NCBI GenBank assembly: GCA_001822095.1
Contig: MHPP01000014.1
Location: forward strand, 1,662-65,661
Length of the DNA stretch: 64,000 nt
Direction: 5' to 3'
From: Candidatus Staskawiczbacteria bacterium RIFOXYC1_FULL_38_18
GTDB taxonomy: Bacteria > Patescibacteriota > Minisyncoccia > Minisyncoccales > Staskawiczbacteraceae
Part shown: positions 31,338 to 47,310 of the stretch, in pieces
How the letters are laid out: each line of letters starts with the position of its first letter
How positions within the stretch are numbered: the first letter of the stretch is position 1
Made by a program: the position numbers and the translations under genes
Notes under the pieces: generated by a model
Database searches by the model: none
The model's input: only the letters and a program-made list of their open reading frames with translations
What the model was told of the DNA's origin: nothing

Positions 31338-31405
31338 AAGCTACTTTAATTTGAGACTCCCAGTAAATTGCAGAGACGAAAGATACAATTAAAAGTAAAT
31401 CAATT

Positions 31406-31432
31406 AAGCCCGAATAAAATTGGGCTTTTTTG
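31406..31432 (+). terminator. Rho-independent terminator
   Basis: aagcccgaataaaattgggctt is followed by TTTTTT. Confidence 0.7.
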
Positions 31433-31497
31433 TTATTATTGAATTCAAAACCAAAAAGTGCTAATTTTAATAAATAAAATAGGTAATAAATAAAAAT

Positions 31498-31890
31498 ATG
31501 AAATCTATTGTAATATGTGGAAGTTCTCGTTTTACAGAAGAAGCGAGGCAATTCGCAACTAAATTAAAAGAATTGGGTGTTATCGTATATGAGCCTCATT
31601 TTTACAGAGCTTCTGGTGGAAACTGGGCGGAAGTAAAAGATTTTGATAAAAAGTTTGTGGCTTTAGGTTTGGTGCACGACCATTTCCAAAAAATGAGATT
31701 AGCGGATGTAATTTATATTTATAACAAAGACGGATATGCAGGAGTAAGCACAAACATAGAAATAGGTTTTGCTATGGGTTTGAACAAGCCAATTTATGCC
31801 TTTTGTGAAAATGACGAAGAACCGCACAGAAAAGTTTTATTCAATAAAATTGTTTCAACCCCAGAAGAGTTATTAAAATTATTAAATTAA
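31498..31890 (+). CDS. DNPH1/Rcl-like 2'-deoxynucleoside 5'-phosphate N-hydrolase (nucleoside 2-deoxyribosyltransferase superfamily), paralog 1
   Basis: An N-terminal IVICGSSRF motif (DNPH1: YFCGSIRGG) and the C-terminal ADVIYIY...STNIEIGFAMGLNKPIYAF block (DNPH1: ADVVVAEVTQPSLGVGYELGRAVAFNKRILCLF), with a catalytic Glu. Confidence 0.55.
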   Translation: MKSIVICGSSRFTEEARQFATKLKELGVIVYEPHFYRASGGNWAEVKDFDKKFVALGLVHDHFQKMRLADVIYIYNKDGYAGVSTNIEIGFAMGLNKPIYAFCENDEEPHRKVLFNKIVSTPEELLKLLN

Positions 31891-31897
31891 ATAAAAA

Positions 31898-32470
31898 ATG
31901 AAAATAATTTTAGGTACAACCTCACCATATCGCATAGAAGCATTTAAGTTTTTGGAAATTGATTTTACAGCAGAGGGAAGCAAAGTGGACGAGTCTCAAG
32001 TAGACAGAAATAATCCAGAAGAATTAGTAAAAGAATTATCAAAATTAAAAGCAGAAGCAGTCGCAAAAAATCACAGTGATGCGATTATTATCGGGATGGA
32101 TTCAGTAGGCTATTTTAACGGAAAAATTCTTGAAAAACCAAAATCAAGAGAAGAAGGTTTTGAAAGATTAAAATCTCTTTCAGGAAACAATCACCAGTTT
32201 TATACTGGAATTCACATAGTAAATACCGCCTCAAATAAGGTAATTTCTAAAATAGTAAAAACAGAAATTTATTTAAGGAATTTTTCAGAAAAAGAAATTG
32301 AAACCTATCTCAACCAAGATAAATTCTATAATACTTACGCTCTTGGATATGACCCTTTGGGACATTACAGCTCAACTTTTGCCGAAAGGATAGAAGGAAG
32401 CTATAACAATTTTTTGAGAGGTATCCCTCTTGAAATTATGCCAGATTTAATTACTAATGCAAACAATTAA
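31898..32470 (+). CDS. maf: Maf-family nucleoside triphosphate pyrophosphatase
   Basis: KIILGTTSPYRIEAF, IIIGMDSVGYFNGKILEKP and the SGNNHQFYTGIHI blocks are typical of Maf/YhdE. Confidence 0.8.
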   Translation: MKIILGTTSPYRIEAFKFLEIDFTAEGSKVDESQVDRNNPEELVKELSKLKAEAVAKNHSDAIIIGMDSVGYFNGKILEKPKSREEGFERLKSLSGNNHQFYTGIHIVNTASNKVISKIVKTEIYLRNFSEKEIETYLNQDKFYNTYALGYDPLGHYSSTFAERIEGSYNNFLRGIPLEIMPDLITNANN

Positions 32471-32471
32471 A

Positions 32472-32897
32472 ATGAAAATAGCAATCGTTGGCAGTTCTCA
32501 TTTTTGCACAGAAATGGTTGAATATAGGGATAAATTGAAAGCTTTGGGACACGAATGTGAGTTGCACGAGCATTATGTTGCCAGGGCAAGCGGTCAAATG
32601 AGAGAATTGTGGGAGAGAATGCAAAAGGAACACGCAAAAGTTAAAATTGAGCACGATTATATCAGGTATCACTACAACGAAATTCTTAACAGCGATGCGG
32701 TTTTGGTTTTGAATTTTGACAAAAATGGAATCAAAAATTATATTGGTGGCAATACCTTGATAGAAATGGGTCAAGCGTATGTTAATAATAAAAAGATTTT
32801 TTTGTTAAATCCTATACCAGATATGCAATACAAAGAGGAAATTGAGGCATTGCAACCAGTTGTAATTAGTAGCAATCTTGATTTAATAAAGATATGA
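32472..32897 (+). CDS. DNPH1/Rcl-like N-hydrolase, paralog 2
   Basis: KIAIVGSSHF and DAVLVLNFDKNG...GGNTLIEMGQAYVNNKKIFLL are paralogous to the 31498 gene. Confidence 0.55.
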   Translation: MKIAIVGSSHFCTEMVEYRDKLKALGHECELHEHYVARASGQMRELWERMQKEHAKVKIEHDYIRYHYNEILNSDAVLVLNFDKNGIKNYIGGNTLIEMGQAYVNNKKIFLLNPIPDMQYKEEIEALQPVVISSNLDLIKI

Positions 32898-33457
32898 ACA
32901 CTAAATTATTAAAACATACAAAAGAACACTGCTTAAAAACTCTTGCGAAAAATAAAGTTTCTTTTGGTTCTGCAAAAGCCGACTCATATCTCCCAGGACA
33001 TATTAACGAGGTTGAAAAGTGTGTGGAAAGAATTATTAAAGATTATCCAGCAGATAGAGAAATAGTTTTATTATCTGTTTATTTGCACGACATTGGACAC
33101 GCACTTGGAAATCATAAAGACCACGAATTAAAGTCCGAAGCCGAAGCAAAGCGTTTTCTAAAAAAGATGGGTTTGATTGAAGACAAAATAAACAGGGTCG
33201 CTCACTGTGTAAGAGCTCACAGGTGCAAAGATGTTCAACCCGAAACCGTAGAGGCAAAGATTTTGGCAACAGCCGATTCTTTAAGCCATATGACAGATGG
33301 TTGCTATATGGATATGTTAATTGATAGAAGAAAGGATTTGGCACTTGGAAAACTTGAAAGGGATTATAGAGATATTGGCTTGTTTCCAAAAATAAAAAAA
33401 GAAATTATGCCCGTTTACAAAGCTTGGAAAGAATTGATAGAAGTATATCCTGAATGA
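32894..33457 (+). CDS. HD-domain phosphohydrolase
   Basis: The H...HD...H...D motif pattern is present (LSVYLHDIGHALG, AHCVRAHRC, LATADSLSHM). Confidence 0.7.
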   Translation: MNTKLLKHTKEHCLKTLAKNKVSFGSAKADSYLPGHINEVEKCVERIIKDYPADREIVLLSVYLHDIGHALGNHKDHELKSEAEAKRFLKKMGLIEDKINRVAHCVRAHRCKDVQPETVEAKILATADSLSHMTDGCYMDMLIDRRKDLALGKLERDYRDIGLFPKIKKEIMPVYKAWKELIEVYPE

Positions 33458-33458
33458 T

Positions 33459-34607
33459 ATGGAAAACGATGAACAACCAGAGATAATAGTAAAATTTATT
33501 AATGAAACAGGCGGAAAAAAATTATCCGAAAAGGAAAAGCGATTACGTTATTCTGTTAGGGTATGGAAAAAAAGATTAAAAAGGAGGAAAGTAATAGAAA
33601 GACGTAAAAAACACATAAGACGTCTTTTACAGGGAAAACCTCTTTCTCTTCATAATGACATCAAAACGAGGGTGAGATATAATGATGTAAGAGCCCCTGA
33701 AGATTTTTCTTTTTTGACAAACACGGAGGAGACAATAGATTTTTTGAATAGGATAGAATCTTATTTTAACAAACGCAAGCAGGTGTTCGTTGTTCTTAAA
33801 AATGTAAAAAATATCGACCATAGTGCCATAACAGTTTTACTTTCATTAATGTATAAATTTAGAGTCGCCAAAATAAAATTCAATGGCGATTTTCCTGATG
33901 ATTTAAAGGTGAAGGAAACAATCGTTGATTCCCAGTTTTTTAGAAAATTATTGTCTCCAATGTCGTCAGATATGGGTAATGATTATACTATGACAAAAAA
34001 TAATCAAATTTTTGCCAGAGCAAACACAATAGTTGTTTCAGAAATGGGAGAAAAAATTATGGAGGAATCCACGAAAACAATTTGGGGAGAGAGGAGAATA
34101 TGTAAGGGATTGCAAAAGACTTTGATTGAATTAATGCACAATACTAACAATCACGCCTCAAGAAGTGAGGACAACCAGGAGCACTGGTGGTTATCTGTTA
34201 ACCACGATAAAGAAAACAAAAAGGTTGATTTCTATTTTGTAGATTATGGACAGGGTATTCTTAGAAGTCTTGAAAGAAAATCTAATCCTAAAATATGGAA
34301 CAATTTTTGGGATAATTTTAAAAAGATGATAGACTTAGGGTCAGAACAAAAGGTCATCGAATGTCTCTTAAACGGAGAGCATTGGAGCCCAGAGCAAAGA
34401 ATACAGCCATATTATAGGGGAAAAGGATTGCCTAGCATAAAAGATTCCTTGAGTAGGGGGCAAATAAGTGATTTGCAGATAATAACAAACAATACACGTT
34501 CTGAAGTCGATTCAAATAATTTTATTCATCTGTCGAAAAATTTTAATGGCACCTTCATCCATTGGAAGTTAGAAAAAAATAACGAAAATAAAATATGGAA
34601 TATATAA
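33459..34607 (+). CDS. STAS-like + GHKL (histidine-kinase-like) ATPase domain protein
   Basis: A central STAS-like block (KQVFVVLKNVKNIDHSAITVLLSLMYKFR) is present. The C-terminal Bergerat-fold boxes are the N-box (ELMHNTNNHA), G1 (VDYGQGI) and G2 (RGKGLPSI). The N-terminus is highly basic. Confidence 0.5.
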   Translation: MENDEQPEIIVKFINETGGKKLSEKEKRLRYSVRVWKKRLKRRKVIERRKKHIRRLLQGKPLSLHNDIKTRVRYNDVRAPEDFSFLTNTEETIDFLNRIESYFNKRKQVFVVLKNVKNIDHSAITVLLSLMYKFRVAKIKFNGDFPDDLKVKETIVDSQFFRKLLSPMSSDMGNDYTMTKNNQIFARANTIVVSEMGEKIMEESTKTIWGERRICKGLQKTLIELMHNTNNHASRSEDNQEHWWLSVNHDKENKKVDFYFVDYGQGILRSLERKSNPKIWNNFWDNFKKMIDLGSEQKVIECLLNGEHWSPEQRIQPYYRGKGLPSIKDSLSRGQISDLQIITNNTRSEVDSNNFIHLSKNFNGTFIHWKLEKNNENKIWNI

Positions 34608-34930
34608 AAATTTTAATAGCAAAAGATTTTTCAAAAACGCCTGGTCCTCGCTATAAAAAGGAGGGGTCTTTTTCCGCTGAGCTTTTTTTAGAACAGATAT
34701 TGGAGAAAAAGTTTACAGATATTTTGGAAAAGAAGGATAAAAAAATAATTATTGATTTGGACGGAACGCTTGGCTATGGAACAAGCTTTTTGGAGGAAAC
34801 TTTCGGAGGGCTTGCCAGAAAATATGGAGCGGATAAAGTGAGTGAAAAAATTGAAGTTGCCTCGAAAGAGGAGCCGTGGCTTTTGGAGGATATTAAGAGC
34901 TATATTGAAGATGTCAAAAAGCAATCCTGA
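34595..34930 (+). CDS. DUF4325-like STAS-fold protein
   Basis: IIIDLDGTLGYGTSFLEETFGGLARKYG resembles the DUF4325/STAS-like motif. The start overlaps the previous gene by 13 nt, suggesting translational coupling. Confidence 0.45.
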   Translation: MEYIKILIAKDFSKTPGPRYKKEGSFSAELFLEQILEKKFTDILEKKDKKIIIDLDGTLGYGTSFLEETFGGLARKYGADKVSEKIEVASKEEPWLLEDIKSYIEDVKKQS

Positions 34931-35534
34931 TGGAGTACTAATTTTTATAATAATCTTTTTGGTTGGGGCAATAATCGGCTCGTGCATTTCTCTTGCGTTT
35001 CTCAACAAATATTCAACTTCGCCATCTGTTTCGATAGACCCAATAGATGGTATTTCTATATTCGTTAACGTGTTATTGGTAATATATGTAACCAGGACGT
35101 TGACTCGCAAAAACGAAGAGGAGAGGGTCGAAAAAGAAATTTTAATAAAACAACTGCAAGATTTTCAGGATTGTCTCGATAACACTATTACTAGATTGCT
35201 TTCAACGGAAAAGCTAAAACTGGTTGCGGTTAATGCTAATCTTAAGACGCTTAGAAGGAATTTTAATTCAATTCGTGAGTTGCTTAAGAAATATAATTTT
35301 ATTTCACAAGCTGAAGATAATGATATTTGTAACACCATAGACGCAATTCTAAGAGACATTAAGGATTTTTTTACTGATACGCCAAGAACTGGAGAAAATG
35401 GGGAAAAGGATGTTGGAGTTAATCAAGACGAAATTTCCTTAGGAGCACAGAATAGGCAGGGGATAGATGATTCAACTATGAAGGCAAAAGGAAAAATCTT
35501 TGAATTGGTTGTATTAATAAACAGAAAAGAATAG
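34915..35534 (+). CDS. Hypothetical single-TM, coiled-coil protein (third gene of the module)
   Basis: An internal Met (MSKSNPDG) overlaps the upstream stop. One TM helix is followed by predicted helical/coiled-coil sequence. No recognisable domain. Confidence 0.4.
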
Positions 35535-35559
35535 ACGCTTATTTTTTATATTTTAGGGA

Positions 35560-35586
35560 GAAGAGGCAAAAGTGCCTCTTTTTTCG
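35560..35586 (+). terminator. Rho-independent terminator
   Basis: agaggcaaaagtgcctct is followed by TTTTTT. Confidence 0.7.
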
Positions 35587-35709
35587 TGTTTTTGGGGTTG
35601 GTAAGAGTCGGATATTTTGGAGTTTCACGACTTGCAAAAAATATCAATCCGTTGTAATGTTTTAATATCGTAGTTTCGTTTCAGGGCTCTTTCACAAGGG
35701 AGACAGAAA

Positions 35710-36039
35710 GTGGACGGAGCAATTCTTGACCAGTTGACTGGCAAACAATACGATTTGCCTGTCTTTGAAAACGATTTGGTGAGGGTTGAATCTGCTGGGA
35801 GAGTTATCCGAGTCGGTATCAAAGACCGAGGGATGGCTTTCTCTTGGTGGGAACCGACTCATCCCTTCTCTGGTAACCGCAGTCTACCGCAACAGCGAGG
35901 TTGGGATTTTCAAGTGGAAACCCCCAACGAGAATGAGACCAGAGCGATTTTTTCAAAGGGAAGCGTGAGGCACGTTCTCACGCTCACCTGCACAAACCCC
36001 AACGTGAAGCCCAAGACCATTGAAGTGAAGTGGGATTAA
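35710..36039 (+). CDS. Hypothetical protein (moderately GC-rich gene)
   Basis: A GTG start has a good SD (AAGGGAGA). The 109-aa ORF is GC-richer than its surroundings. Confidence 0.4.
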   Translation: MDGAILDQLTGKQYDLPVFENDLVRVESAGRVIRVGIKDRGMAFSWWEPTHPFSGNRSLPQQRGWDFQVETPNENETRAIFSKGSVRHVLTLTCTNPNVKPKTIEVKWD

Positions 36040-36065
36040 GTTTTCAATTTTGAAAGGAAACGGCA

Positions 36066-36338
36066 ATGACCACCGCAAGCGACATTAAGAACGTTGCACA
36101 AAGTACCGAAGAAAATCCTTCTCGACTTGGATGCTTCATCTTGAAACCTCCCGTGAGGCTCAAGTATAAGCCAAGTGGGAAAATCGTCACCGCTTCTATG
36201 GTGGATATCAGCGGGAAGTATCCCAACCACGTCCACACGGAAGAGATGGGATACTGGTATCCAGCCGATAAATTTGAAATCGGCACAGAAGTTATAACCG
36301 TGGAGCCAGCCCCGATTGAGGACTTGCTTAACTCGTAG
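36066..36338 (+). CDS. Hypothetical protein (moderately GC-rich gene)
   Basis: An ATG with an SD (AAAGGAAA). The 90-aa ORF is co-directional with the previous gene. Confidence 0.4.
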   Translation: MTTASDIKNVAQSTEENPSRLGCFILKPPVRLKYKPSGKIVTASMVDISGKYPNHVHTEEMGYWYPADKFEIGTEVITVEPAPIEDLLNS

Positions 36339-36463
36339 TTAAGTAGGTCCAACCCGAGATAACGGAAATCGAAATCATAGCCCAATGACGGAAACGTTAG
36401 CAGGCTCTTTTTTTACAAACGGATAAGCTCGCATTTTCATTTATTTTTTGGTAGGATAAAAAT

Positions 36464-36895
36464 ATGAACGATAAGGAAAAATTAGTATTTTTTGCAAAAC
36501 AAAATTTAGGCAAGCCGTATAAATACGGAGCAAAGCCATCAGAAGCTCCCAAGACTTTTGATTGTTCAAGTTTTGTTCAATATATTTACAAAAAAGTTGG
36601 TATAGCTTTGCCAAGGACAGCTCTTGAGCAGGCTCATCTTGGTAAAAAAGTTAAACCCAAAAGAGAGTATTTGCAAATAGGTGATTTGATATTTATAAAA
36701 GGTATGGTTGGTAGATATAATGAAGAGTTTCCGCAAGGAATAGGACACGTTGCAATGTATATCGGAGATGGCAAAATAATACAGGCTAAATATCAAAAAA
36801 ATAAAAATGGGTCTGATGGTGGAAAAGTACAGGTAGATTCAGTCGCAAAAATAATAAATAGAAAAAATTTGGTTGTCATAAAAAGAATAATTTAA
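36464..36895 (+). CDS. NlpC/P60 (C40) cell-wall peptidase
   Basis: The catalytic Cys block FDCSSFVQYIY and the His block GHVAMYIGDGKIIQA are present. Confidence 0.75.
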   Translation: MNDKEKLVFFAKQNLGKPYKYGAKPSEAPKTFDCSSFVQYIYKKVGIALPRTALEQAHLGKKVKPKREYLQIGDLIFIKGMVGRYNEEFPQGIGHVAMYIGDGKIIQAKYQKNKNGSDGGKVQVDSVAKIINRKNLVVIKRII

Positions 36896-36903
36896 TTAAA
36901 TTT

Positions 36904-37155
36904 ATGTCGGAAAATTTAAGACCATTTGAAGAACAACCAGAAAAGGAGCAAACCCAAGAGCAGATTTTAGATGCTTTAGAGTCGGCATTTGAAAAAGGAG
37001 CTAAAGCGGAATTAACCGTCTCGGAACCAAGCGGTGAGTTAAGGATAAATTCAGTTTTTATTGAGGGGCTTGAGGGTGGAATGCTTTTTGTTTCTTCATC
37101 AAAAGATTCTCCCGTAATGGGAATACCGATTGGTGATGTTAAAAGGGTGGTATAA
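36904..37155 (+). CDS. Hypothetical small acidic protein
   Basis: An 83-aa ORF co-directional in the operon. Confidence 0.35.
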   Translation: MSENLRPFEEQPEKEQTQEQILDALESAFEKGAKAELTVSEPSGELRINSVFIEGLEGGMLFVSSSKDSPVMGIPIGDVKRVV

Positions 37156-37166
37156 GTCCCAAAAAT

Positions 37167-37832
37167 ATGGAAGATAAAATAATAAAGGTGTCCGAAACAA
37201 TAAAAGTAAACGATTCTTGGAAGGCGAGAACAGAATCTGGCTATCTTGTCAGTTCAAATAAGACGAAATGTATTGATTTGATTTCACATTCAGACCTTGA
37301 TGAAAATAATATCATAGATATATTGATTAGTTTACATATTATTCTGGAAGCTGGTCTGAACGCTTTTTACAGGAATATGGTGCTTATGTCGCTAAAAAAG
37401 GAGTTGGGCGAGTTCGAAGTTATGGAGAACGTGGACAGGGTCAGTTTTATAGATAAAACGGTCGCATTTATTTATTTCTCTAAGTTTGATTTTGAGGGAA
37501 AACTTGATGAGGCAAAAAAATACCACAGCATAATATCCGCTCTTAAGGATTTTTCAGCAATAAGAAATAAATTATTCCACGGACACTCGATAAGCACAAT
37601 CTTCGATGGAGAAAAAAACCGTCACTCGGAATTAAAGGGTAAAATTACTCTGGAAATGTTGATAGAGCAAATGAGAAAGTTTAGGTTTATCTTAGAGGGA
37701 ATGAGATTTTATTTTGATCGCCTGCAATCCAGTATGACTTCAAGTGGCAAGGAATCATTTAAAAAGGAGTATCTAAGCGATGAATTTTTACCGCATTTAG
37801 GTACTTTTGCAGACGTAGATGTAAAAGAATAA
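37167..37832 (+). CDS. HEPN-like (Rx4H motif) protein, possibly Abi_2/AbiD-like abortive infection protein
   Basis: AIRNKLFHGHS contains R-x4-H near the C-terminal third of an all-helical 221-aa protein. It lies in a mobile-element context. Confidence 0.4.
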   Translation: MEDKIIKVSETIKVNDSWKARTESGYLVSSNKTKCIDLISHSDLDENNIIDILISLHIILEAGLNAFYRNMVLMSLKKELGEFEVMENVDRVSFIDKTVAFIYFSKFDFEGKLDEAKKYHSIISALKDFSAIRNKLFHGHSISTIFDGEKNRHSELKGKITLEMLIEQMRKFRFILEGMRFYFDRLQSSMTSSGKESFKKEYLSDEFLPHLGTFADVDVKE

Positions 37833-37840
37833 ATAAATTT

Positions 37841-38458
37841 ATGATTTTAGATTCGTCAATTTCATCAATAACAAATTTAATCGGTAAATTTACGACAGAG
37901 CCGTTTTATTTTAAAGGATTTTCAGCCAGTGTTTTACCAGGTACGGTTGGAATGCCAGGTTTTAATTTAAAACAAAACACAGATAATTTTTATATGATTG
38001 ACTGGAGTTTGGCAATTAAAATGGCGAACTCCTTAAACGAAGATATTGTGATTGAGAATATAAAATCAGAATGGAGAGGAGTAAATGGTTTTGTATGTAA
38101 ATCTGACGATTTCTGTAACAGTATTTATAGAGTAAAAAGCGATGGCGATGTTGACGCAATAGAAAAATTATTGGCTGGAAATAAACAAAAAGTTTTGCTA
38201 CCGTTTTTAATGAAAAAGCAATCAGAAATTATTATTCAGGCGAATTTTGCGTTATACATATACAAAAAGAGGTTTTTGAGACACTTAGATATGGTCCATT
38301 TCAAAAAAATAGAAGTAAAAGAGCCAGACACATATCATCAATTGTATAGAAAAAGTTTAGTAAAGATAAGACTTAATGGTAAATGGAGGTCTTTAGTTCT
38401 AAAACCCCAGGAGTTTTTTGTTGCAGGCGATATTTTGAATATACCAGATACAAATTAA
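37841..38458 (+). CDS. Hypothetical protein
   Basis: A 205-aa ORF with no recognisable domain. Confidence 0.4.
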   Translation: MILDSSISSITNLIGKFTTEPFYFKGFSASVLPGTVGMPGFNLKQNTDNFYMIDWSLAIKMANSLNEDIVIENIKSEWRGVNGFVCKSDDFCNSIYRVKSDGDVDAIEKLLAGNKQKVLLPFLMKKQSEIIIQANFALYIYKKRFLRHLDMVHFKKIEVKEPDTYHQLYRKSLVKIRLNGKWRSLVLKPQEFFVAGDILNIPDTN

Positions 38459-38471
38459 ATAATAATATACT

Positions 38472-39497
38472 ATGAGTAAAAAAATTCTAATAATCGCAGG
38501 AATAGCAATTTTATTAACACTGATTTTTGGCGTTTTTGTTTTGTTGCAAATAAACAATTTAAGGAAACCACAGGTAAGCTCGCTTGAAGCACAAGCGAAA
38601 GCAATTCAAAATCAGATACAGCAGATAGATTCTGAATACAGGCAAAAGATGAATGAAATAACCGATAAGCAGAAACAAAATAACTGCATAGAGTCAAAAG
38701 ATGTTGAAATGATAAAGACGCTAACAGGCGAAAAACAAACAGAAAAACAATGGAGTATAGTTTCAATGGAGGGAATCTGTGGAGATTTATTCAATCAAAA
38801 CGAAGCCTTGGCAAAAGAGAGGTCTTACAAAACAAGTCAGCTACAAACACAGATGGACCTTTTAACCGCCCGAACGGCATCAGACAGAGAAAAGGCAATG
38901 ACTGCGATTAGAACTTTTATGGTTAAACCTGATTTGGAATTAGTGTATACTGGCACCAGACACCCATCCAATTTTAACGTTGGAGTTGTCGTAAATCGGG
39001 ATGAAGGTGGCTACACAATGGAAGGTTTTAGTGGTTGGGAAAGAAGAGTTGAAGTTTACCAACAAACGGAATATATCAACGACAGATGCGAAGTTTACGA
39101 ATATGAGGTGGATGTTAGAAATAATCAAATTGTAGAGATACACGTTCGTTATCCCGATGGGCTGGCAGGAATGAGTAGTGGTAAATGTACAAGCTACGGT
39201 TCAATGGAAGTTCCGTTAAAGACAAAAGACGAAATTGAAAAGGTAGCATTTGCGTATCTTAGCAGAGACCTCGAACACACAAAATTTTTAATTAGGTCTG
39301 ATATCAAGCCAGAATATCTCCCAAGTAAGACGATAGCGAAAAATCCTGCAATGAACGAATGGCGTTGGGAAGATAAGAGTTACAAACTCCCAGAAGGACT
39401 AACAAGCGACCCGTTCCCGTATCCTATGATTAGAATTATCATTTCAAGCGGAGGAAAGCTTGTCTACTATCTGAATACGACAGAACTATTTAATTAA
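38472..39497 (+). CDS. Hypothetical membrane-anchored coiled-coil protein
   Basis: An N-terminal TM helix is followed by a Q/K-rich coiled coil and a C-terminal globular region. Confidence 0.4.
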   Translation: MSKKILIIAGIAILLTLIFGVFVLLQINNLRKPQVSSLEAQAKAIQNQIQQIDSEYRQKMNEITDKQKQNNCIESKDVEMIKTLTGEKQTEKQWSIVSMEGICGDLFNQNEALAKERSYKTSQLQTQMDLLTARTASDREKAMTAIRTFMVKPDLELVYTGTRHPSNFNVGVVVNRDEGGYTMEGFSGWERRVEVYQQTEYINDRCEVYEYEVDVRNNQIVEIHVRYPDGLAGMSSGKCTSYGSMEVPLKTKDEIEKVAFAYLSRDLEHTKFLIRSDIKPEYLPSKTIAKNPAMNEWRWEDKSYKLPEGLTSDPFPYPMIRIIISSGGKLVYYLNTTELFN

Positions 39498-39525
39498 AGG
39501 GTAATTAAGTATATTTTTACAAATT

Positions 39526-39547
39526 GGGGCTAAATGCCCCTTTTTTA
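39526..39547 (+). terminator. Rho-independent terminator
   Basis: ggggctaaatgcccc is followed by TTTTTT. Confidence 0.7.
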
Positions 39548-39653
39548 TTACTGAATGTGTATGCCAAAACAAACCCAAGACAAATCCAAGGGGTGCCCAG
39601 TAAATCAAAAGGCAAAAGAGGTATGTTTGCTGGGGTGGAGGGAGTTAAGGTTT

Positions 39654-39683
39654 GATTGTGAGGTAATTTATGCTATAATTAAT
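39654..39683 (+). promoter_or_regulatory. sigma70-type promoter (TTGATT-16/17-TATAAT) with ~120-nt G/U-rich leader
   Basis: ttgattgtgaggtaatttatgcTATAAT is followed by a gtggtttcgttttgtatcgtatggtgtggtttt leader before the ATG at 39800. Confidence 0.5.
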
Positions 39684-39799
39684 GTATTAAGGTAAGGTTT
39701 TTTTGTATGGTGGCTCTTTAATAAGATAATTGTGGTTTCGTTTTGTATCGTATGGTGTGGTTTTGATAAATTAAATAATTAAATCAAAAACATATCATT

Positions 39800-40135
39800 A
39801 TGGAAAACAAAATAGGTTATATTGAAAAATACCCCAATATCCCAATGAAAAAAAGTTTACTCTGCCTTTTGCTTGGAATCGAGCTGGAAACGCTTAAAGA
39901 AGTTATTAGGTTATCCAATAAAAAAATATCACTTGAGAAGGCGGTTAATATTGTTTGGGAGGAAGGACAAAGACTAATGGCTTGCGGACAGCTAAAGATA
40001 GGCGAGCCAAAATCTGATAATGACCCAATACCCGTTTATCAAACCGAAACGGGAAAGAGAGAGTTCATTATTCGAGTTCTTAATAAAATTAACCCAAAAT
40101 TGAGCAAGAAATTTAAGCAGGATAAAAAGAAGTAA
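39800..40135 (+). CDS. Hypothetical protein
   Basis: A 111-aa ORF followed by a terminator (cccttttagcaaggg+T6 at 40152-40175). Confidence 0.4.
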   Translation: MENKIGYIEKYPNIPMKKSLLCLLLGIELETLKEVIRLSNKKISLEKAVNIVWEEGQRLMACGQLKIGEPKSDNDPIPVYQTETGKREFIIRVLNKINPKLSKKFKQDKKK

Positions 40136-40392
40136 AAGTAAAAATCCATTTAGCCCTTTTAGCAAGGGTTTTTTGGTTATATTGATTTTTAGCAATTTTG
40201 GCGGTAAGATTAAAATAATTTAATATTGGTTGCCTAACCCTTAAAATTTATTTTAAGGTATGGCAAAAAGTCGTTGTGCATATCAAACCCGTCATTCGGG
40301 GGTGTGCACAACGCTATACAGGGAAACTTGTATATGGGTCGCAAGACTCACCCCAGTGGCGGGTTTTATGTTGTGCCACAATTATTAAAAAT

Positions 40393-40713
40393 ATGGAAAA
40401 TCAAACAGAAGAAACAAAAAGTAGTTTTTTTGAACATTGGAAGCGTTCAGTTTTAGTAATTGTAGGATTTGTAGCTATCTGCATATTTATTGGAAGCCTG
40501 CACTTATCCTCTGAACAAAGCGGGGCATTGGTGATAGCAATACCGTTATGTTTATTTTTATACTTCTTACCAGCATATATCGCTTTCAAAAAAGAAAAGA
40601 AAAATAAGGTTGCTATTTTTGCACTAAATTTGTTTTTAGGATGGACACTTATTGGCTGGATTGTTGCACTGGTTTGGAGCTTAACTTATGAAGAAAGAAA
40701 AAATATAAATTGA
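40393..40713 (+). CDS. Superinfection immunity (Imm_superinfect-like) membrane protein
   Basis: YFLPAYIAFKKEKKNKVAIFALNLFLGWTLIGWIVALVWSL matches the phage superinfection-immunity family pattern. The ORF track starts it at 40276; Met 40393 is preferred. Confidence 0.55.
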   Translation: MENQTEETKSSFFEHWKRSVLVIVGFVAICIFIGSLHLSSEQSGALVIAIPLCLFLYFLPAYIAFKKEKKNKVAIFALNLFLGWTLIGWIVALVWSLTYEERKNIN

Positions 40714-41153
40714 ATATCATAACAATTATGAACAAAAAAATTAAGTATATTATAATAGCTGTTTTAGTCTTGTTTGTTGGCTTGCCCGCTATTGCGATGG
40801 GAAGCTCTATAACCAATTCTCTTATTCACGGAAAATCTATACCAGAAGCTATTGAGATTTTATCCACACAAATTGACTCCCTGATTAGCAGAGTTGAAAT
40901 TTTGGAAACTAAACAAATCGAACAGGAGCGAACAATCGCCTGTAATTTTGCAGACGAAGCCCTGCAAAAAGCTCAAATGGAGGGTGGAATAATTGACGCT
41001 GATTTAAAAGGTATAGACGAGTTGATTACCAAAATAACTTACCAACGCGATAATTCTCCGCAAAGCCAATATGAAATGTGGCAATCACGGTTGGATAAGG
41101 TTCGGAGCATAAAAGAGCAATATGATTCTGCCAAAGAAAAATGTAAACAATAA
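40710..41153 (+). CDS. Hypothetical secreted/anchored helical protein
   Basis: An N-terminal hydrophobic segment is present in this 147-aa protein. Confidence 0.4.
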   Translation: MNIITIMNKKIKYIIIAVLVLFVGLPAIAMGSSITNSLIHGKSIPEAIEILSTQIDSLISRVEILETKQIEQERTIACNFADEALQKAQMEGGIIDADLKGIDELITKITYQRDNSPQSQYEMWQSRLDKVRSIKEQYDSAKEKCKQ

Positions 41154-41165
41154 GCATAAAAATAG

Positions 41166-41193
41166 TTGACACGGCTCGTTGAAGTGCTATAAT
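41166..41193 (+). promoter_or_regulatory. sigma70 promoter TTGACA-16-TATAAT
   Basis: aatagTTGACAcggctcgttgaagtgcTATAATtaaaa. Confidence 0.65.
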
Positions 41194-41199
41194 TAAAAA

Positions 41200-41394
41200 G
41201 TAGAAATAGAAGTTCTACATAAAAAATAAACGAAGGGAAGGTAAAATTTAATATCTATACTAACCGTAGGTGAAATAAACTGCGGGAAAAAAATAAACAT
41301 AAAAGGAGATATCTCCTCTGTTTGATTTTTTCCCAACAGACTCACTTATTGTAGTGGTTCTAAAGAAAAAGCGACAGAGATGTCGTTTTTTTCT
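41200..41394 (+). ncRNA. Candidate ~190-nt small RNA (promoter to terminator, no ORF)
   Basis: It lies between a consensus promoter and an intrinsic terminator (gcgacagagatgtcgt + T7 at 41371-41393). It contains the GGAGATATCTCC palindrome. No start codon follows the internal SD-like AAAGGAG. Confidence 0.3.
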
Positions 41395-41437
41395 GTTTTA
41401 GGGGGTCCGCACAAATGATATTAACAAAAATTATTTT

Positions 41438-41692
41438 ATGGAAAAAGAAAAAGAGCTAATAAATATGCAGAGGTGCTCAAGATTTGAAAGCTGCGATATT
41501 GCAAGATGTCCATTGGATTATTTTATGGATGAAAGGGTTGAGCATAAAGAAGACGAAGTCTGCGTTTTGAGAAAACTGCAAGGGAAAGTTAGAACAAGGC
41601 GAATGAAAGGCATCCTGACACCCAAAATGAGGAGTCTTGCCAACTTTGTGTATAAGAAAAATTTTAAAATCAACCAGGGAGCGAATAATTAA
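41438..41692 (+). CDS. Hypothetical small Cys-containing protein
   Basis: An 84-aa ORF; it contains CSRFESCDIARC. Confidence 0.35.
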   Translation: MEKEKELINMQRCSRFESCDIARCPLDYFMDERVEHKEDEVCVLRKLQGKVRTRRMKGILTPKMRSLANFVYKKNFKINQGANN

Positions 41693-41711
41693 ATAACCTT
41701 GAATCAAAAAT

Positions 41712-42524
41712 ATGACAAACACAAACCAAAGCGTAGAAATTGAGGATGGTAGTAATGATAAAAAGTATTTTACAATAATACCAAATTATATTTTAAATCA
41801 TTCCACGCCATACGACAGAGATGTTTATATTCAAATGAAAAGAATAGCTGGTGAACACGGAACTTGTTGGACATCCCAAAAAACATTAGCTAAACAATGT
41901 GGAGTTAGCATCAATCGATTAAAAAAATCATTGAGTTATCTTTTAGATAACAAATGGATAAAATATATGGGAACTAAAAAGGTTGGAACTAAAGGCGGGG
42001 GGCAGGAGGTCAACGAATACAAAATAGTTGATTTGTGGAAAATGAACGGTGAATTTTATGAAATCAAGGGAGTGTCGCCAGACGATATACCTGCAAAACA
42101 AGGGGTATCACTAATAGAACCAAGGGAATGTCACAAAAAAATCAGAGGGGTGTCGCTGGATGATAACAAAGAAGAACCCATTAATAATAAACCCATTAAA
42201 GAAGAGGCGGGCGATAAGGAAAATCTTATTAAAGAAGTGGTGGAGAAATGGAATTCTTATGCCAAACCGTTAGAGGGATATAGAAATAAAACACTGAATA
42301 AATTTGGTCTCCCGAAATGTAAAGGTATAACAGCGGACATTAGGGTCGTTTTTTACAGGCTTATGAAGGAAAAAAGAACAAAGGAGGCAATGTTGGAATC
42401 TATAAAAAATTATATGAATGAAGTAATTAATAGAAGCCCTGATAATGACTATGCGATTCACAGATTTTCGTTTTATGAGTTTTTTAATCAGGATAATGGT
42501 TTTGTAAAATTTAGTAACAAATAA
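41712..42524 (+). CDS. Phage/plasmid replication-initiation-like HTH protein (DnaD/HTH_36-like)
   Basis: FTIIPNYILNH...DRDVYIQMKRIAGEHGTCWTSQKTLAKQCGVSINRLKKSLSYLLDNKWI is an N-terminal wHTH typical of replisome organiser/Rep proteins. Confidence 0.45.
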   Translation: MTNTNQSVEIEDGSNDKKYFTIIPNYILNHSTPYDRDVYIQMKRIAGEHGTCWTSQKTLAKQCGVSINRLKKSLSYLLDNKWIKYMGTKKVGTKGGGQEVNEYKIVDLWKMNGEFYEIKGVSPDDIPAKQGVSLIEPRECHKKIRGVSLDDNKEEPINNKPIKEEAGDKENLIKEVVEKWNSYAKPLEGYRNKTLNKFGLPKCKGITADIRVVFYRLMKEKRTKEAMLESIKNYMNEVINRSPDNDYAIHRFSFYEFFNQDNGFVKFSNK

Positions 42525-42531
42525 AAAATTT

Positions 42532-43776
42532 ATGACAGATTTAACTTGGCACACAGAAAAACGAAAAGTTAATGACTTACTCCCATTTAAGGGTAACGCA
42601 AGAAAAGAAGATGAAAAACAATCATTTGATTTAAGAAAGAGTTTTGAGAAGTTTGATTTAGTAGAAATACCCGCAATAAATACGGACAATACTACTTTGG
42701 CGGGAAACAGAAGATTAAGAATGCTTCAATTACTTGGGAGAGGAGAAGAAATGATTGACGTTAGGGTTCCGAACAGAGCTTTAACAACGGAGGAGGTGAA
42801 GGAATATAATTTAAGAAGTAATAAAAATACGGCTTCTTGGGATATTGGCTTGCTTGCAAATTTTGACGAAGGTTTGTTGAAGGAGGTCGGCTGGGAAGGT
42901 TGGGAGTTGGATGAAATATTTAGTCCAAATGTTGAAGATGATGATTCATTTGATGTTGAATCAGAGACTAAAAAAATAACAGAGCCAAAAGTTAAGTTTG
43001 GCGATTTGTATGAAGTAAACGGGCACAGAATTTTATGCGGAAATAGTCAGGACCCAGAACGGGTCGAAAAATTAATGGATAGAAAGGTCGCAAAATTAAT
43101 TTTTACAAGCCCGCCATATAATATGGCTGGGAAGATGTATAAAAATTATTCTGACAATTTGAAAAGCGAGGAATATATAAAATTTAACCTTGATGTCCTC
43201 CAAAATTGTAAAAGGTTTTTGAAAGGATTTTGTTTTTGGAACATTTCTTATAACAAAAACGCCAGGTCTGAATTTATTGAAATAATCTATAAGATTATTA
43301 AGGATACTGGCTTGCAGTTTGTAGAGCTAATTGTCTGGGACAAGGGGCACGCCCTCCCAATAGTTTCAAAACAAGGGCTGACGAGAAGGTATGAGGACGT
43401 GTTATTGGTTGGCGATAACGAAAGTGTACAAAGTGATTTGGAAATATATTTTTGTGGGGCGAATGACAAAAAAGTATTTTTCAACAAAAAAAACCAAAAA
43501 GGAATCACAAATTATTGGAGAGTTAATACAAACCAAGCTCAACAGAAAAATCATTTGGCGTGCTTTCCAGTAGCACTCCCAATCAAAGGAATTGAATTGA
43601 TGACACAAAGAGGCGATATTGTATTGGACCCATTTTTGGGAAGCGGGACCACTTTAATAGCATCGGAAAGAACTGGTAGAAAATGTTTTGCTTGTGAATT
43701 GGACCCTTTGTATGTTGAGTTGGCTCTAAATCGTTTTAAATATTTGTTTGGCAAAGAGGCGATAAAAATATGTTAG
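42532..43776 (+). CDS. ParB-like nuclease N-terminal domain fused to DNA N6-adenine/N4-cytosine methyltransferase
   Basis: A ParB-N/Srx fold occupies the N-terminus. The motif IV SPPY (IFTSPPYNM) and a C-terminal AdoMet motif DPFLGSGTT are present. This is a typical phage orphan MTase architecture. Confidence 0.7.
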   Translation: MTDLTWHTEKRKVNDLLPFKGNARKEDEKQSFDLRKSFEKFDLVEIPAINTDNTTLAGNRRLRMLQLLGRGEEMIDVRVPNRALTTEEVKEYNLRSNKNTASWDIGLLANFDEGLLKEVGWEGWELDEIFSPNVEDDDSFDVESETKKITEPKVKFGDLYEVNGHRILCGNSQDPERVEKLMDRKVAKLIFTSPPYNMAGKMYKNYSDNLKSEEYIKFNLDVLQNCKRFLKGFCFWNISYNKNARSEFIEIIYKIIKDTGLQFVELIVWDKGHALPIVSKQGLTRRYEDVLLVGDNESVQSDLEIYFCGANDKKVFFNKKNQKGITNYWRVNTNQAQQKNHLACFPVALPIKGIELMTQRGDIVLDPFLGSGTTLIASERTGRKCFACELDPLYVELALNRFKYLFGKEAIKIC

Positions 43777-44234: not shown

Positions 44235-44245
44235 GATTTTTAAAA

Positions 44246-44449: not shown

Positions 44450-44609
44450 ACTACCCTGGGTAAAATGAGTAGATTTTGAGGGTAATAAGGCAAAACAAAC
44501 AATCAAGTGATTATTCAGTCCTGTCCGTAGAGAGAGGCTTTGACGCAAGGGTTGTCCAGCGTCATCATCACGCCACTGGTAAAGTAAATTAAAAAGCCAG
44601 TGTAAAAAT

Positions 44610-45155: not shown

Positions 45156-45159
45156 AAAT

Positions 45160-46776: not shown

Positions 46777-46787
46777 AGTAGAATACA

Positions 46788-46821: not shown

Positions 46822-46829
46822 AATTAGCT

Positions 46830-47303: not shown

Positions 47304-47310
47304 AAAATAC

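What the first reader, a model, noticed from the sequence alone, without database searches (positions are those of the whole stretch)
31498..33457. DNPH1-Maf-DNPH1-HD cluster: a compact nucleotide-sanitising or salvage operon
Two paralogous DNPH1/Rcl-like deoxynucleoside-5'-phosphate N-hydrolases flank a Maf NTP pyrophosphatase, followed by an HD phosphohydrolase. All four are co-directional with tiny or overlapping junctions. DNPH1 cleaves (modified) dNMPs, Maf cleaves (modified) dNTP/NTPs and HD enzymes dephosphorylate nucleotides. Together they could remove non-canonical or modified nucleotides, or salvage bases and sugars in an organism lacking de novo synthesis. Given the adjacent prophage-like DNA, they could also be phage auxiliary genes manipulating the nucleotide pool, or part of an anti-phage nucleotide-depletion strategy.
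Basis: partly seen in the sequence, partly recalled or inferred. Interest (0 to 1): 0.6.

Follow-up and report, generated by a model that had tools for sequence, protein, structure and literature searches.

The report
Nucleotide-cleanup genes on inserted element
Four small enzymes that most likely destroy abnormal DNA/RNA building blocks sit together at the edge of a 15-kb piece of inserted mobile DNA in a tiny groundwater bacterium, and two of them belong to uncharacterised families that elsewhere are repeatedly fused to known 'house-cleaning' enzymes.

Summary
Four co-directional genes lie at 31498-33457, separated by gaps of 7 nt and 1 nt and a 4-nt overlap.

- **Family assignments:** The Maf and HD assignments are solid. 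The two small proteins are true paralogues in the nucleoside 2-deoxyribosyltransferase (NDT) superfamily, which contains DNPH1. They form two separate Patescibacteria families and lack DNPH1's catalytic Tyr and its phosphate-binding Ser98. "DNPH1-like" therefore describes a likely function, not membership.
- **Functional link:** The second family (NDT2) has no Pfam model. It is fused in different proteins to Maf, NUDIX, MazG or YjjX-type NTPases. Genes of both families are significantly flanked by NUDIX, Maf, HD and ASCH genes. This supports a two-step disposal route: non-canonical (d)NTP to (d)NMP, then to base plus sugar phosphate.
- **Conservation:** The exact four-gene order is seen only in this population. 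Sub-modules recur elsewhere (Maf-NDT2, NDT2-Maf-HD, NDT1-NDT2).
- **Location:** The cluster is not beside mobile DNA. It is the left end of a 15.4-kb insertion between the S41 peptidase gene and rplI, which are adjacent in one relative and one ORF apart in another. The insertion ends in a large serine recombinase gene.
- **Defence or phage role:** I found no evidence for a known defence system or phage origin.

Verdict: moderately interesting, a new variant of a known kind.

The parts
31406..31427 (+). Terminator-like hairpin plus T-run after the S41 peptidase gene. It is the upstream limit of the transcription unit and lies in the probable left junction of the inserted block (31338-31497).
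   Evidence: 8-bp stem, 4 GC pairs, T-run; sequence. The synteny break is shown.
31498..31890 (+). NDT1: a 130-aa NDT-superfamily protein and predicted nucleotide N-glycosidase. Glu88 is the putative nucleophile in the invariant E-I-G motif. The N-terminal C-G-S motif resembles the DNPH1 loop.
   Evidence: PF05014 at 31.8 bits, above the cutoff. The listed homologues are 57-80% identical across Patescibacteria. Model pLDDT 90. Foldseek hits: CtNDT E 2e-5, YtoQ, DNPH1 E 2e-4. Glu88 aligns with CtNDT Glu88 and MilB Glu103.
31898..32470 (+). Maf-family nucleoside triphosphate pyrophosphatase. The catalytic signature S9-R12-E32-K51-D68-K80 is intact. The subfamily triad is atypical (Tyr11, Ser69, third position unclear).
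   Evidence: PF02545 E 7e-38; TIGR00172 127 bits against a 117 cutoff. The best solved relative is E. coli YceF 4jhc, E 9e-25. Signature definitions come from PMC3899018.
32472..32897 (+). NDT2: a 141-aa paralogue of NDT1 (146 aa if started at 32457). It belongs to a large Patescibacteria family without a Pfam model. Glu98 is the putative nucleophile in the invariant G-G-N-T-L-x-E-x-G motif.
   Evidence: No Pfam or NCBIfam hit, though 18 of 27 family members give sub-threshold PF05014 hits. hhalign against the NDT1 family 98.4%. 2246 homologues and 800 clusters at 50% identity with E<=1e-10. Model pLDDT 95. Foldseek hits: BcmB CMP N-glycosidase, CtNDT, DNPH1. Fusions to Maf, NUDIX, MazG and NTPase_I-T.
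32894..33457 (+). HD-domain metal-dependent phosphohydrolase, YedJ-like. The motif H36...H65-D66...H104/H109...D128 is present. Its substrate is unknown.
   Evidence: PF01966 E 3e-11. Top NCBIfam hit PRK10119, below its cutoff. Best solved relative E. coli YedJ 3gw7, E 2e-5, with the metal ligands aligned.
33459..34607 (+). 382-aa protein of unknown function starting 1 nt after the HD stop. It is in the same tightly packed gene run.
   Evidence: phrog_3364 E 2e-37, function unknown. No Pfam, PADLOC or PDB match. Junction sequence.
34595..34930 (+). DUF4325 (STAS-like) protein, overlapping the previous gene by 13 nt.
   Evidence: PF14213 E 3e-14; phrog_5816.
34911..35534 (+). Membrane protein of about 207 aa (230 aa from the GTG at 34842). 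It is the last gene before the terminator.
   Evidence: ORF. Gene calls of 207 aa on identical contigs. Only weak transmembrane-family hits.
35556..35585 (+). Strong terminator-like hairpin (13-bp stem plus T-run). It is the probable end of the transcription unit that begins at NDT1.
31338..46829 (.). Inserted block of about 15.4 kb between the S41 peptidase gene and rplI. It contains the four hydrolase genes, the three genes above, an NlpC/P60 gene (36464-36895), a superinfection-immunity gene (40276-40713), a replication initiator (41712-42524), a ParB-like DNA methyltransferase (42532-43776), a small serine recombinase (44610-45155) and a large serine recombinase (45160-46776).
   Evidence: One relative has S41 followed directly by rplI then pyrG (L136/L137); in another a single 243-aa ORF separates S41 from rplI (L139). 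In the window, L9 is at 46830-47303 and pyrG at 47260-48960. GC and GC3 of the cluster (0.336 / 0.286) and the rest of the block (0.358 / 0.337) are below the host genes (0.399 / 0.395); cluster against host MWU p 0.002.

Best explanation
The four genes encode a nucleotide-disposal ('house-cleaning' / salvage-filter) module of a kind common in Patescibacteria. Here the module is carried as cargo at the left end of a 15.4-kb integrated element.

**Proposed steps (inferred):**
1. Maf hydrolyses non-canonical or surplus (d)NTPs to (d)NMP plus PPi.
2. The two NDT-superfamily paralogues use a conserved glutamate nucleophile (Glu88 in NDT1, Glu98 in NDT2) to cut the N-glycosidic bond of the resulting nucleoside monophosphates. 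This releases the base and (deoxy)ribose 5-phosphate, so the abnormal nucleotide cannot be re-phosphorylated and the sugar phosphate is recovered. The two paralogues probably cover different base or sugar classes.
3. The HD enzyme is a metal-dependent phosphohydrolase acting on a nucleotide or sugar phosphate in the same route. This is the least certain step.

**Shown:** gene order, family and fold assignments, conservation of the catalytic motifs, statistical linkage and physical fusion of NDT2-type domains with NTP (pyro)phosphatases, and the insertion status of the block.

**Inferred:** the substrates, the order of the steps, and the benefit to the cell. That benefit would be filtering modified nucleotides in an organism that presumably depends on scavenged nucleic acids.
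For: - **Families and folds:**
- **Catalytic Glu:** it is invariant in both families and aligns with the nucleophiles of CtNDT (Glu88) and MilB (Glu103).
- **Fusions (Rosetta-stone evidence):** of the 30 longest NDT2-family representatives scanned, 10 carry NTPase_I-T (the YjjX ITPase/XTPase family), 3 carry NUDIX, 3 carry MazG and 1 carries Maf. The partners span four unrelated NTP (pyro)phosphatase families (Maf, NUDIX, MazG, NTPase_I-T); Maf, NUDIX and MazG enzymes yield nucleoside monophosphates.
- **Maf::NDT2 fusion:** P0411 has the same domain order as the window gene pair and the same Maf subtype (TYALGY[DN]P motif). It occurs on two independent contigs.
- **Recurrence of the pair:** Maf is immediately upstream of NDT2 in the closest relatives. 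In L051 (88% identical) the order is DUF3850, HD_3/YfbR-like, Maf, NDT2. In L054 (83%) the order is gyrB, Maf, NDT2, ybaB, secE, nusG, with dCMP deaminase, Tmk, ThyA, Dcd and DHFR 2-5 kb downstream. It also occurs in L059. L108 has NDT2-Maf (4-nt overlap) followed by an HD of the same type.
- **NDT1 neighbours:** a NUDIX gene lies within two genes of NDT1 in 16 of 45 dereplicated loci. In five Falkowbacteria loci it is an MTH1-like oxidised-purine dNTPase (E 5e-49 to solved MTH1).
- **Other neighbours:** Ham1/ITPase, cytidine deaminase, inorganic pyrophosphatase, ASCH and Q_salvage.
- **Enrichment statistic:** 35/218 against 13/418, p 3e-5.
- **Known precedent for the chemistry:** DNPH1 and MilB hydrolyse (hydroxymethyl-)pyrimidine nucleoside monophosphates through a Glu nucleophile (PMC10603095). 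Maf proteins prefer modified NTPs (PMC3899018).
- **Insertion status:**
Against: - No biochemical data exist for either NDT-like family.
- By motif alignment, both families lack the Tyr of the DNPH1/NDT catalytic triad and the Ser98-equivalent phosphate ligand. The candidate general-acid Asp is D/E/N in NDT1 and D/N in NDT2. The chemistry or the substrate may therefore differ.
- Structural matches are only moderate (TM 0.5-0.7) and do not separate nucleoside-using from nucleotide-using relatives.
- The exact four-gene order is unique to this population. HD linkage rests on few loci (L016, L020, L108). NDT1-Maf adjacency occurs in only one other locus (L009).
- Patescibacteria genomes are compact and co-directional, so adjacency alone is weak evidence.
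- The fusion evidence covers the NDT2 family only.
- Being on a mobile element and co-transcribed with three unknown genes leaves room for a conflict-related role.
Confidence: 0.55

Rival explanations
1. Conflict module of a mobile element. The element carries the hydrolases to protect its host (or itself) against phages or rival elements. It would do so by depleting nucleotides, or by destroying the modified dNTP/dNMP that hypermodified phages need. The downstream 382-aa protein and DUF4325 pair might control it.
For: The cluster lies inside the inserted block and has its composition. It sits in one tightly packed run with p382 (phrog_3364) and DUF4325 (phrog_5816), with no strong terminator-like site before 35556. 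The element also carries a superinfection-immunity gene and a DNA methyltransferase. Nucleotide-depleting defence enzymes are an established class (for example the dGTPase paper listed). DNPH1 and MilB act on hydroxymethylated pyrimidine nucleotides.
Against: No PADLOC model matches NDT1, Maf, NDT2, p382 or the membrane protein. Neither NDT family has relatives in IMG/VR or INPHARED, and NDT1, Maf and NDT2 match no PHROG family. The same families sit among core genes in other genomes: between secA and ileS, and between gyrB and secE-nusG. Very high sequence conservation (57-92% among the listed homologues across classes) is atypical for fast-evolving defence genes. p382 and DUF4325 did not accompany NDT genes in the 47 NDT1 loci searched for them (L001-L047).
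Confidence: 0.15
2. Salvage by base exchange. NDT1 and NDT2 are genuine nucleoside 2-deoxyribosyltransferases, as in lactobacilli. They would swap bases between scavenged deoxynucleosides, and Maf and HD would supply nucleosides by dephosphorylation.
For: The best Foldseek hits for NDT1 are true NDTs (CtNDT, D. psychrophila and B. psychrosaccharolyticus NDT). PF05014 is the only Pfam hit. An HD 5'-nucleotidase could make nucleosides. HD_3/YfbR-like 5'-deoxynucleotidase genes neighbour NDT genes in several loci.
Against: The Tyr conserved in NDTs (Tyr7) is absent from both families. The fusion and neighbour partners are overwhelmingly NTP pyrophosphatases, whose product is a monophosphate rather than a nucleoside. 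NDT2's best structural match is a CMP N-glycosidase. The CGS N-terminal loop of NDT1 resembles the phosphate-binding loop region of DNPH1 (my reading of the sequence; the DNPH1 features are).
Confidence: 0.15
3. No joint function. Four unrelated small housekeeping genes are merely packed together by genome compaction or by the assembly of the island. The shared 'nucleotide' theme is coincidental.
For: The four-gene order is not conserved outside this population. HD and NDT1 linkage to the others is rare. Patescibacteria genes are generally co-directional and tightly spaced.
Against: There is a Maf::NDT2 gene fusion and recurrent Maf-NDT2 adjacency. NDT2 is fused to three further NTPase families. 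The neighbourhood enrichment is significant. L108 repeats the NDT2-Maf-HD grouping in a lineage only 45% identical.
Confidence: 0.1

Closest known systems
DNPH1 / Rcl (2'-deoxynucleoside 5'-phosphate N-hydrolase 1)
   Same: It has the same fold superfamily and small size. A Glu nucleophile sits in an E-[LIM]-G motif on the equivalent helix. The N-terminal C-G-S loop is similar in NDT1. In humans it works after an NTP pyrophosphatase step (from my own knowledge: DCTPP1, a MazG-type enzyme, acts upstream of DNPH1). This parallels the Maf, MazG and NUDIX links found here.
   Different: There is no significant sequence match to DNPH1. Tyr24 of the triad is replaced by Val (NDT1) or Ala/Thr (NDT2). 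Ser98 is replaced by an invariant Gly. The Ser128' helical extension and the Glu55/His56 element could not be identified. DNPH1 is not the top structural hit for either protein.
Nucleoside 2-deoxyribosyltransferases (PF05014; for example Chroococcidiopsis CtNDT 8pqr, Lactobacillus NDT)
   Same: They are the best Foldseek matches for NDT1 (E 2e-5, TM 0.6-0.74). NDT1 passes the Pfam gathering score. The nucleophile Glu aligns.
   Different: Tyr7 is absent. NDT2 does not reach the Pfam threshold. The genomic and fusion partners point to nucleotide rather than nucleoside substrates.
MilB / BcmB / BlsM CMP (hydroxymethyl-CMP) N-glycosidases
   Same: BcmB is the best structural match for NDT2 (4jen). 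MilB is the best single-sequence PDB match for NDT1, with the nucleophile motif aligned (V-E-I-G against I-E-I-G). They hydrolyse nucleoside monophosphates.
   Different: The matches are only marginal (E 0.03 and 1e-3). Those enzymes belong to antibiotic biosynthesis clusters, which is not the context here.
Maf house-cleaning pyrophosphatases (YhdE and YceF subfamilies; Tchigvintsev et al. 2013, PMC3899018)
   Same: The full S-R-E-K-D-K catalytic signature is present. The closest solved relative is YceF (E 9e-25).
   Different: The subfamily triad is neither R-T-Q (YhdE) nor W-Q-E (YceF). It reads Tyr-Ser-unclear, so substrate preference cannot be transferred. This Maf subtype is the one found fused to NDT2.
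YedJ-type HD phosphohydrolases
   Same: The HD metal-binding motif is conserved and aligned.
   Different: Similarity is low (E 2e-5) and YedJ itself is uncharacterised. Elsewhere an HD_3/YfbR-like 5'-deoxynucleotidase, not this type, neighbours NDT genes.

Membership tests
NDT-like superfamily (Pfam PF05014 and relatives) | Sequence match to the family model above the curated threshold | tested here: met
   NDT1 scores 31.8 bits against a 28.8 cutoff. NDT2 alone does not pass (12.5 bits). NDT2 is tied to NDT1 by hhalign at 98.4%, and 18 of 27 NDT2-family members give sub-threshold PF05014 hits.
NDT-like superfamily (Pfam PF05014 and relatives) | Flavodoxin-like NDT fold | tested here: met
   The AlphaFold models have pLDDT 90 and 95. 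The top Foldseek PDB hits are all NDT, YtoQ, DNPH1 or BcmB structures.
NDT-like superfamily (Pfam PF05014 and relatives) | Conserved glutamate nucleophile | tested here: met
   Glu88 (NDT1) and Glu98 (NDT2) are invariant in 25 and 27 aligned homologues. Glu88 aligns with CtNDT Glu88 and MilB Glu103.
DNPH1 / Rcl | Catalytic triad Tyr24-Asp80-Glu104 (PMC10603095) | tested here: not met
   Glu is present. The Tyr position, two residues before the C/x-G-S motif, is Val5 in NDT1 (nearly invariant) and Ala/Thr/other in NDT2. The candidate Asp (D61 in NDT1, D62 in NDT2) varies to E/N or N in some members. The alignment is by motif, not by superposition.
DNPH1 / Rcl | Phosphate coordination by Ser98 (six residues before the nucleophile) and by Ser128' from the partner subunit | tested here: not met
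   The residue six before the nucleophile is an invariant Gly in both families (G82, G92). Conserved Ser84/Thr85 (NDT1) and Asn94/Thr95 (NDT2) lie nearby and could substitute. The Ser128' equivalent is not identifiable.
DNPH1 / Rcl | Hydrolysis of dNMP (5hmdUMP) to base plus deoxyribose 5-phosphate; homodimer | not testable with these tools
   This needs enzyme assays and oligomer analysis.
Maf (PF02545) | Signature S-R-E-K-D-K | tested here: met
   S9, R12, E32, K51, D68 and K80 align to YceF and B. subtilis Maf. The signature is defined in PMC3899018.
Maf subfamilies YhdE (R-T-Q) and YceF (W-Q-E) | Subfamily-specific triad | tested here: not met
   Tyr11 is aromatic (YceF-like) and Ser69 is Thr-like (YhdE-like). 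The third position falls in a divergent GYDPLGH segment and aligns to Gly or Pro. All NCBIfam equivalog models score below their cutoffs.
HD phosphohydrolase superfamily (PF01966) | H...HD...D metal-binding motif | tested here: met
   H36, H65-D66, H104/H109 and D128 align to YedJ.
Known anti-phage defence systems (PADLOC-DB v2) | Match of any component to a defence-system model | tested here: not met
   The only matches are weak generic HD hits to Cas3/Cas10 HD domains and a 12-bit DrmA hit for DUF4325.
Prophage | Virion structural and packaging genes; relatives among viral contigs | tested here: not met
   No capsid, portal or terminase family was found. The block has an NlpC/P60 gene, a superinfection-immunity gene, a replication initiator, a methyltransferase and two serine recombinases. 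No close relatives of p382 or the integrase occur in IMG/VR. Three ORFs (37167-39497) remain unassigned, so a small virus or satellite is not excluded.
Integrated mobile element | Interrupts conserved synteny, carries a recombinase at one end, and has deviant composition | tested here: met
   S41, rplI and pyrG are contiguous in L136/L137; L139 has one extra 243-aa ORF between S41 and rplI. A large serine recombinase gene ends 53 nt before rplI. GC and GC3 are lower than in host genes. The att sites were not defined.

The most novel reading that the evidence does not exclude
The element-borne NDT1-Maf-NDT2-HD module, possibly controlled by the co-transcribed 382-aa and DUF4325 proteins, is an immunity or inter-element competition device. 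It would strip the cell of the modified dNTPs and dNMPs that base-hypermodified phages must accumulate, so that nucleotide 'sanitising' is repurposed as defence. It would be the first such system described, and it would come from the Candidate Phyla Radiation.
Probability: 0.1. Interest if true: 0.8.

Novelty: new variant of a known kind. Interest (0 to 1): 0.5.

Why it matters
Patescibacteria are generally thought to lack de novo nucleotide synthesis and to live on scavenged nucleic acids (my background knowledge, not tested here). They would therefore import modified and damaged nucleotides along with normal ones. This analysis gives a concrete, testable function to two uncharacterised protein families. 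One of them has no Pfam model, yet it has more than 2,000 sequence clusters at 90% identity and about 800 at 50% identity.

The predicted function is nucleoside-monophosphate N-glycosidase activity that makes the action of house-cleaning NTP pyrophosphatases irreversible. This is the bacterial counterpart of the human DCTPP1/DNPH1 route.

The fusions of NDT2 to Maf, NUDIX, MazG and YjjX-type NTPases are unusually coherent functional evidence. They could guide annotation of thousands of hypothetical proteins.

The finding also shows that such modules travel on integrative elements in these organisms.

Tried and rejected
- **Phage origin:** scans of IMG/VR with both NDT family profiles, with p382 and with the integrase found no relatives. 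tblastn of NDT1 and NDT2 against 50,697 phage genomes found nothing. The viral structure library gave only distant NDT-fold hits at the same level as the PDB.
- **Defence:** PADLOC gave nothing meaningful.
- **Conserved four-gene synteny:** tblastn and HMM screening of 134 related loci showed it is not conserved.
- **att sites:** the repeat search over 31.2-47.4 kb gave no convincing terminal repeats. Only a 9-nt 'AATTCAAAA' is shared by both junctions, which is compatible with chance.
- **Junction alignment:** aligning the junctions with the relatives' S41-rplI spacer showed only that the window's rplI-proximal spacer (46777-46829) resembles the native spacer.
- **Empty site:** all contigs carrying the identical L9 protein also carry the integrase upstream, so no empty site was seen in this population.
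- **p382:** no Pfam, PDB or PADLOC assignment.
- **Literature:** no paper was found linking NDT-like proteins with NUDIX or Maf, or describing them in Patescibacteria.


Full report
**1. What is there**

| Gene | Coordinates | Length |
|---|---|---|
| NDT1 | 31498-31890 | 130 aa |
| Maf | 31898-32470 | 190 aa |
| NDT2 | 32457/32472-32897 | 146 or 141 aa |
| HD | 32894-33457 | 187 aa |

- Nearly all of the listed NDT2 homologues are about 140 aa and begin MKI. The real start is therefore probably 32472, one base after the Maf stop.
- The other junctions are a 7-nt gap and a 4-nt overlap.
- Pfam and NCBIfam confirm Maf (E 7e-38) and HD (E 3e-11). They place NDT1 in PF05014 Nuc_deoxyrib_tr just above the curated cutoff. 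NDT2 matches nothing.
- NDT2 is nevertheless a genuine paralogue of NDT1: BLASTP E 3e-10 and family-to-family hhalign 98.4%. In addition, 18 of 27 NDT2-family members give sub-threshold PF05014 hits.

**2. The two small proteins**

- **Distribution.** Both belong to large, strongly conserved Patescibacteria families. NDT1 homologues among the 120 best-scoring hits (of 221) are 57-80% identical and include Falkowbacteria and Saccharimonadales; Woesebacteria and one DPANN bin appear among the more distant genome loci (48-55% identical). NDT2 has 2,246 clusters in the indexed search and 800 representatives at 50% identity with E<=1e-10.
- **Fold.** The AlphaFold models are confident, with pLDDT 90 and 95.
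  - Foldseek against the PDB returns only NDT-fold proteins at the top.
  - For NDT1 the hits are cyanobacterial and psychrophile NDTs, YtoQ and DNPH1 (E 2e-5 to 1e-3, TM 0.6-0.74).
  - For NDT2 the hits are the CMP N-glycosidase BcmB, then NDT and DNPH1 (E about 1e-3).
- **Nucleophile.** A glutamate is invariant in each family (Glu88 and Glu98). It aligns with the nucleophiles of CtNDT and MilB.
- **Departures from DNPH1.** The defining features of DNPH1 are set out in PMC10603095.
  - By motif alignment, the triad Tyr is Val in NDT1 and variable in NDT2.
  - The Ser98 phosphate ligand is an invariant Gly in both.
  - The candidate general-acid Asp is not invariant.
- **Conclusion.** The proteins belong to DNPH1's superfamily but are not DNPH1 family members. 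Fold alone cannot tell whether the substrate is a nucleoside or a nucleotide.

**3. Is the linkage conserved?**

I fetched 47 genome loci around NDT1 homologues and 80 metagenome loci around NDT2 homologues. I also took several contigs for the closest NDT2 relatives. I classified the neighbours with local HMMs and Pfam.

- **The four-gene order.** It is found nowhere else except in identical copies of this population.
- **Maf-NDT2 recurs.**
  - L051 (88% identical): DUF3850, HD_3, Maf, NDT2.
  - L054 (83%): the pair lies between gyrB and ybaB-secE-nusG, upstream of a dCMP deaminase, Tmk, ThyA, Dcd and DHFR cluster.
  - L059 also has the pair.
- **NDT2-Maf-HD** occurs in L108.
- **NDT1 next to NDT2** occurs in L020, L047 and L099; in L010, L036 and L070 the two are separated by one or two genes.
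- **NDT1-NUDIX.** A NUDIX gene lies within two genes of NDT1 in 16 of 45 dereplicated NDT1 loci. Five of these NUDIX proteins are MTH1-like.
- **Falkowbacteria context.** NDT1 lies in a variable stretch between secA and ileS that also holds ASCH, HD_3/YfbR-like, pyrophosphatase and NUDIX genes.
- **Statistic.** Across 116 dereplicated loci, NUDIX, Maf, HD and ASCH genes are 16% of immediate neighbours, against 1-7% at four or more genes away (Fisher p 3e-5).

**4. Fusions**

The exhaustive profile search for NDT2 returned many longer proteins. Of 30 scanned with Pfam:

| Fused partner | Count |
|---|---|
| NTPase_I-T (YjjX ITPase/XTPase family) | 10 |
| NUDIX | 3 |
| MazG | 3 |
| Maf | 1 |
| Tandem NDT domains | several |

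- The Maf::NDT2 protein (P0411) has the same domain order and the same Maf subtype as the window pair.
- P0411 and an NDT2::NTPase_I-T fusion each occur on two independent contigs.
- The NDT2::NTPase_I-T fusion is flanked by a NUDIX gene and a Q_salvage gene.
- Four unrelated NTP (pyro)phosphatase families share one partner. This strongly suggests that NDT2 acts on their common kind of product, a nucleoside monophosphate. Combined with the conserved Glu nucleophile, it supports N-glycosidic cleavage of (d)NMP. That is DNPH1-like in function even though membership fails.
- This is inference, and no assay exists.
- The fusion evidence is for NDT2. NDT1 is linked by paralogy and by its NUDIX neighbours.

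**5. Maf and HD**

- **Maf.** It keeps the full S-R-E-K-D-K signature and is closest to YceF. Its subfamily triad fits neither YhdE nor YceF, so its preferred substrate cannot be read off.
- **HD.** The metal ligands align with those of YedJ. Its substrate is unknown, and its linkage to the others is the weakest part of the cluster.

**6. Genomic setting**

- **Synteny break.**
  - In related Staskawiczbacteria-like genomes (S41 peptidase about 70% identical), the S41 gene is followed by rplI and pyrG, directly in L136/L137 and after one 243-aa ORF in L139.
  - Downstream synteny (L27, prenyltransferase, LAGLIDADG) then matches the window.
  - In the window, S41 ends at 31337 and rplI starts at 46830.
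  - Everything between is therefore extra DNA.
- **Content of the block.** It holds the four hydrolase genes, a 382-aa unknown protein, a DUF4325 protein and a membrane protein. It also holds NlpC/P60, a superinfection-immunity gene with a LOOT RNA, a replication initiator, a ParB-like methyltransferase and two serine recombinases. The large recombinase gene ends 53 nt before rplI.
- **Composition.** Cluster genes have GC 0.336 and GC3 0.286. The rest of the block has 0.358 and 0.337. Host genes have 0.399 and 0.395 (cluster against host p 0.002).
- **Transcription unit.**
  - The HD stop and the next start are 1 nt apart.
  - The two strongest terminator-like hairpins on the + strand flank the run, at 31406-31427 and 35556-35585; a few weaker 5-bp-stem matches lie inside it.
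  - The likely transcription unit is thus seven genes long.
- **Status.** The cluster is cargo at the left end of an integrated element, not a chromosomal operon beside one. No virion genes were recognised, so 'prophage' is unproven. The att sites could not be defined.

**7. Rival readings**

- **Defence or competition.** Location on a mobile element keeps this role open. However, PADLOC, PHROGs, IMG/VR and INPHARED give no support. The same families sit among core genes elsewhere.
- **Base-exchange salvage.** A true nucleoside-transferase role is disfavoured by the missing Tyr and by the nature of the partners.
- **Chance juxtaposition.** This is excluded for Maf-NDT2 by the fusion. It remains conceivable for HD.

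**8. Verdict**

- The module is best described as a Patescibacteria-type two-step disposal or salvage-filter system for non-canonical nucleotides, carried here by an integrative element.
- It is a new variant of a known kind. The chemistry and logic have precedents (DNPH1, MilB, Maf, MTH1). The two NDT-like families, their systematic coupling to NTPases, and their mobility have not, as far as the searched literature shows, been described.

Noticed in passing
window 40231-40350 (+): A LOOT RNA (Rfam RF03000, 87 bits against a gathering score of 46) lies inside the inserted element. It overlaps the start of the superinfection-immunity ORF 40276-40713.
   Followed up: no
window 33459-35534 (+): Three genes share a transcription unit with the hydrolase genes: a 382-aa protein (phrog_3364, otherwise unassignable), a DUF4325/STAS-like protein and a membrane protein. 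By eye the 382-aa protein has GHKL-ATPase-like motifs. Together with the STAS-like partner this would resemble an anti-sigma / anti-anti-sigma switch. This is untested.
   Followed up: partly
window 10950-11860: A patch of GC 0.58 sits in a genome of about 0.39 GC, with long ORFs on both strands. It has no Rfam family and no solved-structure relative.
   Followed up: partly
L154 189-2820 and L155 160-2791: The gene order is NUDIX, then an NDT2::NTPase_I-T fusion, then Q_salvage (a queuosine salvage family). It is another modified-nucleotide processing neighbourhood.
   Followed up: no
window 31442-31456 / 32701-32715 and 46815-46823: A perfect 15-nt inverted repeat links the left junction and the inside of NDT2. 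A 9-nt 'AATTCAAAA' is shared by the left and right junctions of the inserted block. It could be an att core or chance in AT-rich DNA.
   Followed up: partly
window 44610-45155 and 45160-46776: Two serine recombinase genes lie in tandem at the right end of the element: a small resolvase/invertase-like one and a large one.
   Followed up: no
L001-L047 (for example L006, L008, L043 positions about 3500-6900): In Falkowbacteria the secA-ileS interval is a variable stretch of small genes: ASCH/DUF3850, a UVR-motif protein, HD_3, a Bro-like 276-aa protein, NDT1 and MTH1-like NUDIX. It looks like a hotspot for nucleotide-processing accessory genes.
   Followed up: partly
window 50093-50608 (-): A LAGLIDADG homing-endonuclease-like ORF lies next to the prenyltransferase gene. 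It is conserved at the same position in relatives.
   Followed up: no
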